A stretch of 64,000 bases of DNA. Origin: Escherichia coli (GTDB lineage Bacteria; Pseudomonadota; Gammaproteobacteria; Enterobacterales; Enterobacteriaceae). The stretch lies in NCBI RefSeq assembly GCF_050920415.1, contig NZ_CP169309.1; one strand, written 5' to 3'. This document shows positions 18,201 through 21,200 of this stretch, piece after piece (the stretch's first letter is position 1; each line of letters begins with the position of its first letter). A program made the position numbers.

Positions 18201-21200
18201 ACACTGTTAGGCAGCAAAGAGCGCGATGAAGAAAACGACGGCACGCCGCTGCCTGTGGTGGCGAAAGGCGATGAGTTGCTGTGTGAAAAAGGTGAAGTGG
18301 TAGAGCGGCAAACCCAGCCGCCGCGCCATTTTACCGATGCAACACTGCTTTCGGCGATGACCGGGATCGCGCGCTTTGTTCAGGACAAAGATCTGAAAAA
18401 GATCCTTCGTGCCACCGATGGTCTGGGGACAGAAGCAACCCGTGCCGGGATTATTGAACTGTTGTTCAAGCGTGGCTTTCTGACCAAAAAAGGGCGCTAT
18501 ATCCACTCCACCGACGCCGGAAAAGCGTTATTCCATTCGCTGCCAGAAATGGCTACGCGACCGGACATGACCGCGCACTGGGAATCGGTGCTGACGCAAA
18601 TCAGCGAAAAGCAGTGTCGCTATCAGGACTTTATGCAACCGTTGGTGGGGACGCTGTATAAGTTGATTGATCAGGCCAAACGTACGCCGGTGCGGCAGTT
18701 TCGCGGCATAGTGGCTCCAGATGGAGGAGAAGGAAATAAAAAGACTTCACCCCGTAAGCGAGCAGCGAAAAAAAGCCCGCCAGCAGCAGAGGCGGGCAGT
18801 GGAGTGATAATGTAATGCTCTGATGCAGTCAGTTTTCGTAGGCCAGATAAGGCGTTCACGCCGCATCTGGCATAAACGCCTGAAACGGCGCTAATGACTT
18901 AAATCACACCCTGCGCCAGCATCGCATCGGCAACCTTCACAAAACCGGCAATGTTCGCGCCCTGCACGTAGTTGGTTTGCTCACCTTCACCACCATGCTC
19001 AACACAGGCATGGTGGATATCCAGCATGATGTGATGCAAACGTGCGTCAACTTTCTCGGCTTTCCAGCCCAGGCGCGCAGCGTTTTGCGCCATTTCCAGG
19101 CCGGATGTAGCTACGCCACCAGCATTAGCCGCTTTACCCGGTGCAAACAGTACGCCTGCCTGCTGGAACAGTTCAGTCGCTTCGATGGTGGTCGGCATAT
19201 TTGCCCCTTCGGCGACGGCTTTAACGCCATTGGCGATAAGCTGATGCGCGGCGTCTACATCCAGTTCGTTCTGGGTGGCGCAAGGCAGGGCGATATCAAC
19301 CGGTACAGACCACGGCTGTTGGCCTTCGAGATAGACCAGGCCAAATTTTTTGGCGTAATCTGCCACTCGACCATCGCGGCTGGCTTTGATTTCGATAAGA
19401 CGTGCCAGTTTCTCTTTAGTGAATCCGCTTTCATCAACGACAGTGCCACTGGAGTCTGACGCAGTAATCACACGGGCACCAAATTCCATCGCTTTTTCGA
19501 TAGCGTACTGAGCGACGTTGCCGGAGCCAGAAACGGAAACGCGCATCCCTTCAAAACCCATACCGTGGCGTTTTAGCATTGCCTCGGTGAAATAAACCAG
19601 ACCGTAGCCGGTTGCTTCCGGGCGAATAAGACTGCCGCCAAAAGAAAGCCCCTTACCGGTGAAGACGCAGGCGGTATTGTTGGAGAGCTTTTTCATCATC
19701 CCCGCCATAAAGCCGACTTCACGACCACCAACGCCGATATCACCTGCCGGAACGTCGGTATCTGCGCCCAGGTGGCGATACAGTTCAGTCATTAGCGCCT
19801 GGCAGAACCGCATCACTTCGCCTTCGCTTTTCCCTTTCGGGTCGAAATCGCTGCCGCCTTTACCACCGCCCATCGGCAGAGTTGTCAGGGCATTTTTGAA
19901 GGTTTGTTCAAAGCCGAGGAATTTGAGAATGGAGAGATTTACCGATGGATGGAAGCGCATACCACCTTTGTACGGGCCGATGGCGGAGCTGAACTGCACG
20001 CGCCATGCACGGTTGACCTGTACCTGGTTGCGATCGTCAACCCATACCACGCGAAACTGGATCACGCGCTCCGGTTCAACCAGACGCTCCAGTAATGACA
20101 TCTGACGATATTTTGGATTTTGTTCAAGAAAAGGCCAGAGTGTGGTCATTACTTCACGAACGGCTTGCGCGAACTCGGTTTGATTCGGGTCGCGCTTTTG
20201 GACATGGTTGAGGAATGACTCCAGAGAATATGTCTGATCCATAGATATAAAACCCTTATATATTAATACGATTATGCTTATGTTGTTTATGTCATGTGCT
20301 TTTGCAGTTTTCGACTATACCATCAAGAATGTGACGGTAAGCAAGAAAAAAATGACTCACGAAAGCAAATTAATAACGGGAGAAATCTCATAACCAAAAG
20401 CGATAACTCAGACGCTAAAGTTTTGCCGCCAGGCTACCGTTATCAGTAGCAGAGACAAAAACGTTAAGGAGTTCCCTGTGAGTCGAGCATTGTTCGCCCT
20501 AGCATTGGCATTTCCATTCATTGCACTGGCTAACCCGCATTATCGTCCGGACGTGGAGGTAAACGTACCGCCTGAAGTATTCAGTTCAGGCGGGCAGTCA
20601 GCGCAGCCCTGTACTCAGTGCTGCGTCTATCAGGATCAAAACTATTCTGAAGGGGCGGTAATTAAAGCCGAAGGAATACTGCTGCAATGCCAGCGGGATG
20701 ACAAAACTCTTAGCACTAATCCGCTGGTCTGGCGGCGCGTAAAGCCATAAACGCCTCTAATAGTGGAATGTCAGCAGGGGCCAGCGGATATTGCAGCGCC
20801 TCTTCAGGTGAGCACCAGACCAGCGCCTGATGTTCATGTGCCTGTAACGTCCCGTGGAAGTCGGGTACGTGCCAGGCATGAAGATGGATAATCCGCCCCG
20901 ACACTTCTCGCTGATGGCTGGCAACATACTCACCCACAGTTGCTTCGATGCCCAATTCTTCGCGTAACTCACGCACCAGCGCCTGCCGCTGGCTTTCATC
21001 CGGCTCGACTTTACCACCGGCAAACTCCCATAATCCCGCCTGATCGCTATGGGCGGGGCGTTGAGCGAGTAAAATTTTGCCATCACGTTCGATGATGGCG
21101 GCAACAACTTCAATCATATTCATAAATTACACACGGGCAGATAAGCGAAAAATGCCATAATATCCGCACTGTTGCTCAATCAGAAAGGCTTTATATTTAA

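What the first reader, a model, noticed from the sequence alone, without database searches (positions are those of the whole stretch)
18816..18898. No ynjI between topB and gdhA; only a REP element
As I recall K-12, a roughly 346-codon membrane protein gene (ynjI) sits between gdhA and topB. Here the convergent topB and gdhA stops are 83 bp apart and the gap holds a single REP element. This suggests a presence/absence polymorphism at a REP-marked junction.
Basis: partly seen in the sequence, partly recalled or inferred. Interest (0 to 1): 0.35.

Follow-up and report, generated by a model that had tools for sequence, protein, structure and literature searches.

The report
Empty ynjI slot between topB and gdhA
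This E. coli strain really lacks the accessory gene ynjI between topB and gdhA and has only a common repeat (REP) element there, which is an old and ordinary "empty" version of a gene slot that varies among strains.

Summary
topB (+) ends at 18815 and gdhA (-) ends at 18899. The 83-bp gap holds one canonical 35-nt REP (18838-18872) plus a degenerate REP fragment. There is no ynjI anywhere in the window.

Among 5,426 complete E. coli genomes the slot has at least six states:
- K-12-type ynjI: about 3,493 genomes.
- A 71%-identical ynjI allele: 13.
- An HscC-like Hsp70 plus J-domain/Sel1 pair: 266.
- The same pair plus a 266-aa ORF: 96.
- A common empty type: about 1,489.
- The window's empty type: 17.

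The window's gap is orthologous to the empty gaps of E. albertii and two other Escherichia lineages. Salmonella, Citrobacter and most other genera checked also have topB and gdhA adjacent. So this is an old empty allele, not a fresh deletion. REPs do not flank ynjI on both sides.

ynjI is AT-rich (41% GC against 53-55% in the flanking genes) and is reported to be H-NS-repressed. The variable segment also includes the last ~35 codons of topB.

This is ordinary accessory-gene variation. The mildly interesting extras are that the same ynjI polymorphism occurs in Pseudocitrobacter faecalis, and that the alternative cargos share domain families with K-12's hscC chaperone cluster.

The parts
16860..18815 (+). 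topB (DNA topoisomerase III, 651 aa)
   Evidence: ORF. The RefSeq annotation of strain MFDS1022581 (identical over the stretches compared) maps to these coordinates.
18700..18815 (+). Hypervariable 3' tail of topB (last ~35 codons). It forms the left part of the variable segment, and each slot state carries its own tail version.
   Evidence: Identity to other haplotypes falls from 93-99% to 47-82% here. Tail sequences differ by state.
18816..18898 (.). 83-bp convergent intergenic gap, the 'empty' allele of the ynjI slot
   Evidence: Orthologous to the empty gaps of U15A, L007, L008 and E. albertii.
18838..18872 (+). Y-type REP element (GTAG head, imperfect palindrome)
   Evidence: Sub-threshold Rfam hit to the REP-derived naRNA4 family. 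The stem carries a paired change (GCCAGAT/ATCTGGC against GCCGGAT/ATCCGGC in the orthologues) that keeps pairing.
18871..18885 (+). 15-mer CATAAACGCCTGAAA, identical to the sequence across the ynjI stop codon in K-12-type alleles
   Evidence: Among the 95 fetched loci it occurs only in four: three K-12-type ynjI loci and L002, the RefSeq copy of the window strain. About 1.6e-4 matches are expected by chance under uniform composition.
18878..18891 (+). Degenerate partial REP core (GCCTGAAACGGCGC)
   Evidence: It aligns with GCCTGATGCGGCGC in L008 and with the start of a full second REP in E. albertii.
18899..20242 (-). gdhA (NADP-specific glutamate dehydrogenase, 447 aa)

Best explanation
The 83-bp gap is the unoccupied allele of a long-lived variable slot between the convergent core genes topB and gdhA. 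The window carries a rare sub-type of the Escherichia 'empty + Y-type REP' spacer. That spacer was already present before E. coli separated from E. albertii and the other Escherichia lineages sampled. Other E. coli strains carry AT-rich foreign cargo in its place: ynjI with its own promoter and a two-REP cluster, or an HscC-like Hsp70 plus J-domain/Sel1 pair. Alleles are most likely exchanged by homologous recombination with crossovers in the body of topB and at the gdhA stop codon, so each allele travels with its own version of the TopB C-terminal tail (inferred). The REP itself is a genome-wide repeat. In this position its hairpin most likely acts as the 3'-end structure for both convergent transcripts, stabilising the mRNAs and damping read-through (inferred from general REP biology as I recall it; not tested here).
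For: Geometry and REP identity.

Census of states.

Orthology of the empty spacers across Escherichia (same REP, same position and orientation, shared flanking bases).

Outgroups: topB and gdhA are within roughly 30-190 bp in Salmonella diarizonae, Citrobacter, Enterobacter, Kosakonia and most other genera where both genes were found; the three spacers read out are 15-39 bp with no REP.

Cargo looks foreign: ynjI is 41% GC and the Hsp70 island 42%, against 53-55% in the flanking genes. ynjI is H-NS/StpA-repressed and BglJ-RcsB-activated (PMC3950696).

The variable segment extends into the topB tail, with state-specific tails.

No integrase, IS element, tRNA gene or target duplication is seen at the window junction.

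No intrinsic terminator lies in the gap, so the REP hairpin is the only strong structure (-29.8 kcal/mol, z -2.6 on the + strand; -33.9 kcal/mol, z -4.0 on the - strand).
Against: Polarity is not fully settled. ynjI also sits in the same slot in Pseudocitrobacter faecalis, with the same divergence as the flanking core genes (80% against 81%). ynjI could therefore be as old as the empty allele.

A 15-nt patch of the window gap is identical to the K-12 ynjI stop region. This hints at past exchange between filled and empty alleles.

The recombination mechanism and the REP's role at transcript 3' ends are inferred, not shown.
Confidence: 0.8

Rival explanations
1. ynjI was recently deleted in the window's lineage from a K-12-like allele, for example by recombination between REP-related sequences.
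For: The 15-mer CATAAACGCCTGAAA is shared only with the K-12-type ynjI stop region. ynjI is demonstrably lost by other routes in some strains, such as IS1 insertion and truncation.
Against: The rest of the gap, including the REP, its upstream 22 nt and the last 13 nt, aligns with the empty spacers of other Escherichia species and not with K-12. The topB tail is of the empty-allele type. K-12 has no REP on the topB side of ynjI to recombine with. K-12's REPs are of a different type. No IS element is present.
Confidence: 0.08
2. The empty state is purely ancestral, and ynjI was a single late insertion inside E. coli.
For: Nearly all other Enterobacteriaceae lack ynjI in this slot. ynjI has low GC. 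Full-length YnjI homologues are few: 8 clusters in a database of 5.8 billion protein clusters.
Against: ynjI occupies the same slot in Escherichia sp. MOD1-EC7003 (91% aa) and in Pseudocitrobacter faecalis (80% nt, equal to flank divergence), with a conserved promoter spacer and the same REP pair. E. coli also holds a second allele only 68% identical in protein inside 98-100% identical flanks. The gene is therefore old in this slot, not a late single gain.
Confidence: 0.1
3. The absence is an assembly artefact, or ynjI simply sits elsewhere in this genome.
For: None found. REPs can in principle collapse assemblies.
Against: Seventeen independent complete genomes share this junction at 97% identity or more, and about 1,489 more have an orthologous empty junction. 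Genomes that have ynjI hold one copy (median 1, maximum 2). No homologue lies in the 64-kb window.
Confidence: 0.02

Closest known systems
E. coli K-12 gdhA-ynjI-topB interval (b1761-b1763)
   Same: Same flanking genes in the same convergent arrangement. gdhA is 98% identical over its terminal ~500 bp and 96.6-97.0% over the whole gene; topB is about 93% identical over its last 1.7 kb.
   Different: K-12 has a 1,284-bp spacer: a 127-bp promoter region, ynjI (346 aa, DUF1266, inner-membrane protein) and two REPs of other types. TopB is 653 aa with a different tail. The window has 83 bp with one Y-type REP and a 651-aa TopB.
REP / BIME elements of Enterobacteriaceae
   Same: 35-nt imperfect palindrome with a GTAG head, extragenic, between convergent genes, and at 40 or more places (cap) per chromosome.
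   Different: Here it is a lone REP plus a fragment, not a full BIME. E. albertii has three REPs at the same place and K-12 has two of another type.
Chromosomal integration hotspots between conserved core genes, as described for E. coli pangenomes (recalled from memory)
   Same: Identical flanks with different AT-rich cargo in different strains. Other genera hold unrelated cargo in the same slot: an Hcp-like gene cluster, a porin/PTS cluster, a TRAP transporter, and an MFS/LysR cluster. These labels come from reading the ORFs, not from a family scan.
   Different: No tRNA gene, integrase or direct repeats. The variable segment begins inside the topB coding sequence. I found no paper naming this slot.
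K-12 hscC-djlC-ybeU-ybeT-djlB-ybeR-ybeQ cluster
   Same: The alternative cargos of the slot share its domain families. YnjI, YbeU and YbeR are all DUF1266 proteins. The island Hsp70 is 43% identical to HscC. The island J protein has a DjlB/DjlC-like J domain and YbeQ/YbeT-like Sel1 repeats.
   Different: It lies at a different locus. YnjI has an extra N-terminal membrane region and shows no BLASTP-level similarity to YbeU or YbeR. None of this is present in the window.

Membership tests
REP element | Imperfect palindrome of about 35 nt that folds into a hairpin | tested here: met
   Stem GCCAGAU...AUCUGGC with an inner GGCG/CGCC stem. The fold is stronger than shuffles on both strands.
REP element | Extragenic location | tested here: met
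   Lies between the topB and gdhA stop codons.
REP element | GTAG head and match to the Y-type consensus (consensus recalled from memory) | tested here: met
   GTAGG at 18838. 32 of 34 specified positions match, with 0 expected by chance.
REP element | High copy number across the genome | tested here: met
   40 or more places per chromosome (cap reached) in 5,425 of 5,426 genomes; the listed hits carry no annotated feature.
REP element | Mobilised or recognised by a RAYT (TnpA-REP) transposase | not testable with these tools
   Needs biochemistry. No RAYT gene was looked for outside the window.
BIME (cluster of REPs in alternating orientation) | Two or more full REPs in opposite orientation separated by a short linker | tested here: not met
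   The window has one full REP plus a 14-nt core fragment. K-12 and E. albertii do meet this at the same locus.
ynjI / DUF1266 gene | ORF with a DUF1266 domain between topB and gdhA | tested here: not met
   No ORF in the gap. tblastn with YnjI gives no hit better than E = 0.65 in the 64-kb window.
Variable accessory-gene slot (integration hotspot) | Same conserved flanks, different gene content among strains | tested here: met
   Six states in E. coli. Other cargo in other genera.
Classical genomic island | tRNA/tmRNA target, integrase, flanking direct repeats | tested here: not met
   None is seen in the window gap or in the K-12, UPEC957C or XYEH3314 alleles by annotation and reading.
Intrinsic (Rho-independent) terminator | GC-rich hairpin followed by a U run | tested here: not met
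   The scan finds none inside 18816-18898. The only site lies inside topB and is no more than shuffles give.

The most novel reading that the evidence does not exclude
The topB-gdhA slot could be a long-lived polymorphism shared between genera. Its alternative cargos would then be exchangeable parts of one HscC-type, membrane-associated Hsp70 system kept diverse by balancing or diversifying selection, for example in envelope stress or conflict with phages. The cargos in question are membrane DUF1266 YnjI in at least two deeply diverged allele classes, or an HscC-like Hsp70 plus J/Sel1 co-chaperone with or without a 266-aa ORF that looks secreted. Each cargo is linked to its own TopB C-terminal tail. 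On this reading the window's REP-only allele would be the null state.
Probability: 0.1. Interest if true: 0.55.

Novelty: already known. Interest (0 to 1): 0.22.

Why it matters
For the window itself it matters little. It is an ordinary empty allele of an accessory-gene slot, present and annotated in about 1,500 public genomes. It records that ynjI is dispensable and variably present, which is worth knowing when K-12 is used as the gene-order reference. The wider context could repay a population-genetic study: six states, a 68%-identical ynjI allele inside near-identical flanks, the same polymorphism in Pseudocitrobacter, and cargo from the HscC/DjlB/DUF1266 group. That study could also give a first functional lead on DUF1266 proteins.

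Tried and rejected
- Rfam: only a sub-threshold hit to the REP-derived naRNA4 family (36 bits against a gathering score of 59.5) in the gap. It reflects REP similarity, not a separate RNA gene.
- Promoter and terminator scan: nothing in the gap.
- REP-to-REP deletion model: rejected, because K-12 has REPs only on the gdhA side of ynjI and they are of another type.
- IS-mediated loss: seen in other strains (IS1) but there is no IS in the window.
- Recent transfer of ynjI between Escherichia and Pseudocitrobacter: rejected, because ynjI (80%) is no more similar than the flanks (81%) and the topB tail is not elevated.
- PADLOC defence models: YnjI and the 266-aa ORF gave no hit. The Hsp70 gave only 18 bits and the J/Sel1 protein only 23 bits over a repeat stretch, so I treat neither as meaningful.
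- Divergence peak at the junction: rejected. Window-to-K-12 identity is patchy (82-99.5%) over 48 kb rather than centred on the slot.
- Literature search for a named topB/gdhA hotspot: no paper found.
- Phylogroup assignment of the window strain and of the empty-allele carriers: not attempted, because whole genomes were not available.

Full report
**1. Observation**

On the + strand, topB ends with TAA at 18813-18815. On the - strand, gdhA occupies 18899-20242. The gap is 18816-18898, which is 83 bp. A RefSeq genome identical over the stretches compared, E. coli MFDS1022581, annotates topB (651 aa) and gdhA there with nothing between them.

The gap reads, in order:
- 22 nt of unique sequence.
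- The 35-nt palindrome GTAGGCCAGATAAGGCGTTCACGCCGCATCTGGCA (18838-18872).
- 26 nt that include a degenerate REP core, GCCTGAAACGGCGC (18878-18891).

The palindrome meets every sequence criterion of a REP element that I could test:
- It has a GTAG head and matches the recalled Y-type consensus at 32 of 34 positions, with none expected by chance.
- It forms a hairpin.
- It lies outside genes.

Rfam gives only a sub-threshold hit to the REP-derived naRNA4 family. No ynjI-like sequence exists anywhere in the window.

**2. K-12 comparison**

In strain MG1655p the order is:
- topB (653 aa).
- A 127-bp spacer.
- ynjI (1041 nt, 346 codons, Pfam DUF1266, same strand as topB).
- A 116-bp spacer with two oppositely oriented REPs.
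- gdhA.

The REPs lie only on the gdhA side of ynjI and are of a different type from the window's REP. The two alleles share no spacer sequence apart from one 15-nt patch described in section 5. Divergence also begins about 100 nt before the topB stop codon. The TopB tails differ in length and sequence.

**3. Census of the slot**

Counts are from 5,426 complete E. coli genomes.

| State of the topB-gdhA slot | Genomes |
|---|---|
| K-12-type ynjI (a few disrupted by IS1) | about 3,493 |
| ynjI allele 71% (nt) / 68% (aa) identical to K-12, inside 98-100% identical flanks | 13 |
| Hsp70 + J-domain/Sel1 protein | 266 |
| 266-aa ORF + Hsp70 + J-domain/Sel1 protein | 96 |
| Empty, U15A type | about 1,489 |
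| Empty, window type (97% identity or more over the junction) | 17 |
| Not classified | about 50 |

Other points from the census:
- ynjI is 41% GC and the Hsp70 island 42%, against 53-55% in the flanking genes.
- The Hsp70-island alleles have no REP, and they carry yet other TopB tails.
- Published work reports ynjI as an inner-membrane protein gene that is H-NS/StpA-repressed and BglJ-RcsB-activated. That is typical of acquired AT-rich DNA (PMC3950696).

**4. Polarity**

A scan of one genome per species recovered 80 topB loci.

*Evidence that the empty state is old*
- In most loci where both genes were found, topB and gdhA lie within roughly 30-190 bp and no ynjI is present. This includes Salmonella enterica subsp. 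diarizonae, thirteen Citrobacter loci, Enterobacter and Kosakonia.
- The three outgroup spacers I read out (Salmonella and two Citrobacter) are only 15-39 bp and contain no REP.
- Within Escherichia, E. albertii, Escherichia sp. E1V33 and strain SCPM-O-B-8794 are empty.
- Their spacers align with the window's and with U15A's. They have the same Y-type REP in the same position and orientation, with shared bases on both sides.
- In E. albertii the window's half-REP corresponds to the start of a full second REP.
- The window's REP differs from its orthologues by a paired change on both arms of the stem (GCCAGAT/ATCTGGC against GCCGGAT/ATCCGGC), which keeps pairing.

Together these show that the 'empty + Y-REP' spacer predates E. 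coli and that the window carries a rare sub-type of it. It is not a fresh deletion.

*Evidence that ynjI is also old in this slot*
- It is present in Escherichia sp. MOD1-EC7003 at 91% aa identity.
- It is present on a gut-metagenome contig that is 99% identical in the flanking genes to Pseudocitrobacter faecalis DSM 27453.
- The P. faecalis type strain itself is empty, with identity to that contig running to 3 nt past the topB stop and resuming 7 nt before the gdhA stop.
- ynjI of that contig is 80% identical to K-12's, the same as the flanking core genes (81%). It has a conserved promoter spacer and the same REP pair downstream.

Both filled and empty alleles are therefore ancient, and the same polymorphism exists in a second genus. 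Which allele came first in the common ancestor cannot be settled with the data here.

**5. An unexplained detail**

The 15-mer CATAAACGCCTGAAA (18871-18885) is identical to the sequence spanning the ynjI stop codon in K-12-type alleles. Among the 95 fetched loci it occurs in only four: three K-12-type ynjI loci and L002, which is the RefSeq copy of the window strain. About 1.6e-4 matches are expected by chance under uniform composition.

The orthologous empty spacers read CAGATGCCTGATG at this position. All the window's local differences from them therefore move towards the K-12 sequence. Both stretches derive from REP, which inflates chance similarity. Even so, the shared departures suggest a short exchange or shared descent between a filled and an empty allele. 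This is the only point in favour of the deletion rival.

**6. Mechanism**

*Shown*
- The variable segment is bounded by the last ~35 codons of topB and by the gdhA stop codon.
- It has no integrase, tRNA gene, IS element or target duplication.
- Each state has its own TopB tail.
- The cargo is AT-rich.

*Inferred*
- Alleles are swapped by homologous recombination in the conserved bodies of topB and gdhA. The cargo is carried in with its own topB 3' end.
- The REP hairpin is the only strong structure in the gap (-29.8 kcal/mol, z -2.6 on the topB-sense strand; -33.9 kcal/mol, z -4.0 on the gdhA-sense strand), and no intrinsic terminator is present. It therefore most likely serves as the 3' stabilising or attenuating structure for both convergent mRNAs. 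This rests on my recollection of general REP biology.

**7. Context worth noting**

- The slot is a hotspot beyond Escherichia. Other genera hold an Hcp-like gene cluster, a porin/PTS cluster, a TRAP transporter or an MFS/LysR cluster there. I assigned these labels by reading the ORFs, not by a family scan.
- The two E. coli cargos share domain families with K-12's hscC-djlC-ybeU-ybeT-djlB-ybeR-ybeQ cluster. In that cluster the DUF1266 genes ybeU and ybeR overlap the J-protein genes djlC and djlB by 4 nt.
- The island Hsp70 is 43% identical to HscC. The island J protein combines a DjlB/DjlC-like J domain with YbeQ/YbeT-like Sel1 repeats.
- HscC is reported to work with DjlC at the membrane and to be sporadically distributed among prokaryotes (PMC8215388).
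- This makes a functional link between YnjI and HscC-type chaperones plausible but untested. PADLOC defence models gave no hit for YnjI or the 266-aa ORF and only very weak hits for the Hsp70 and the J protein.

**8. Verdict**

The feature is an ordinary, publicly annotated, old empty allele of a multi-state accessory-gene slot, marked by a standard REP. Novelty is low and interest is modest. The most novel reading still open is a balanced polymorphism shared between genera, involving modules of one Hsp70 system. It has low probability on present evidence.

Noticed in passing
window 12301-13113 (-): A 270-aa ORF lies between ansA and sppA. K-12 has only about 50 bp there. Other E. coli contigs carry a SIMPL-domain (PF04402) gene at this position. 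This is another presence/absence polymorphism.
   Followed up: partly
window 27098-28510 (-): ydjZ-like and ydjX-like ORFs are directly adjacent, and K-12's lipoprotein gene ydjY between them is missing. The 28-29 kb segment (ydjX) is only 82% identical to K-12.
   Followed up: partly
window 1-47343: Identity to K-12 is unusually low and patchy for two E. coli strains, at 82-99.5% per kb and about 95% overall from 13 to 47 kb. K-12 and U15A are also only 94.6% identical in topB. Only 14-17 of 5,426 genomes share the window's local haplotype.
   Followed up: partly
L088-L091 8001-9032 (E. coli contigs): A second ynjI allele class is 68% aa identical to K-12. It has sharp boundaries, running from about nt 110 of the gene to its stop, inside flanks 98-100% identical to K-12. 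It is more diverged from K-12 than the Pseudocitrobacter orthologue is.
   Followed up: partly
L092 vs L024 (Pseudocitrobacter faecalis): The same ynjI presence/absence polymorphism occurs at topB-gdhA in another genus. The REP pair appears in a permuted order in the empty allele.
   Followed up: partly
L006 727-5237 and L094 4001-7641 (E. coli UPEC957C, XYEH3314): These are the alternative cargos in the slot: an HscC-like Hsp70 (43% identical to HscC), a 646-aa J-domain plus 7x Sel1 protein, and in some genomes a 266-aa ORF that by eye starts with a signal-peptide-like N-terminus and has no Pfam hit. They occur in 362 genomes in all.
   Followed up: partly
window 18700-18815; L001, L003, L006, L094 topB 3' ends: The lysine-rich C-terminal ~35 residues of topoisomerase III exist in at least five very different versions, each linked to one state of the slot.
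   Followed up: partly
window 38493-38535 (-) and 62409-62533 (+): Rfam hits above gathering score: ES036 (CssrF) sRNA, in a region that also matches the REP core motif at 38556-38571, and the Phe leader.
   Followed up: no
L043, L053, L062, L071 (other Enterobacteriaceae), between topB and gdhA: 3.6-5.7 kb of unrelated cargo sits in the same slot: an Hcp-like gene with small membrane ORFs, a porin/PTS cluster, a TRAP transporter and an MFS/LysR cluster. The labels come from reading the ORFs. This shows the slot is a hotspot across the family.
   Followed up: no
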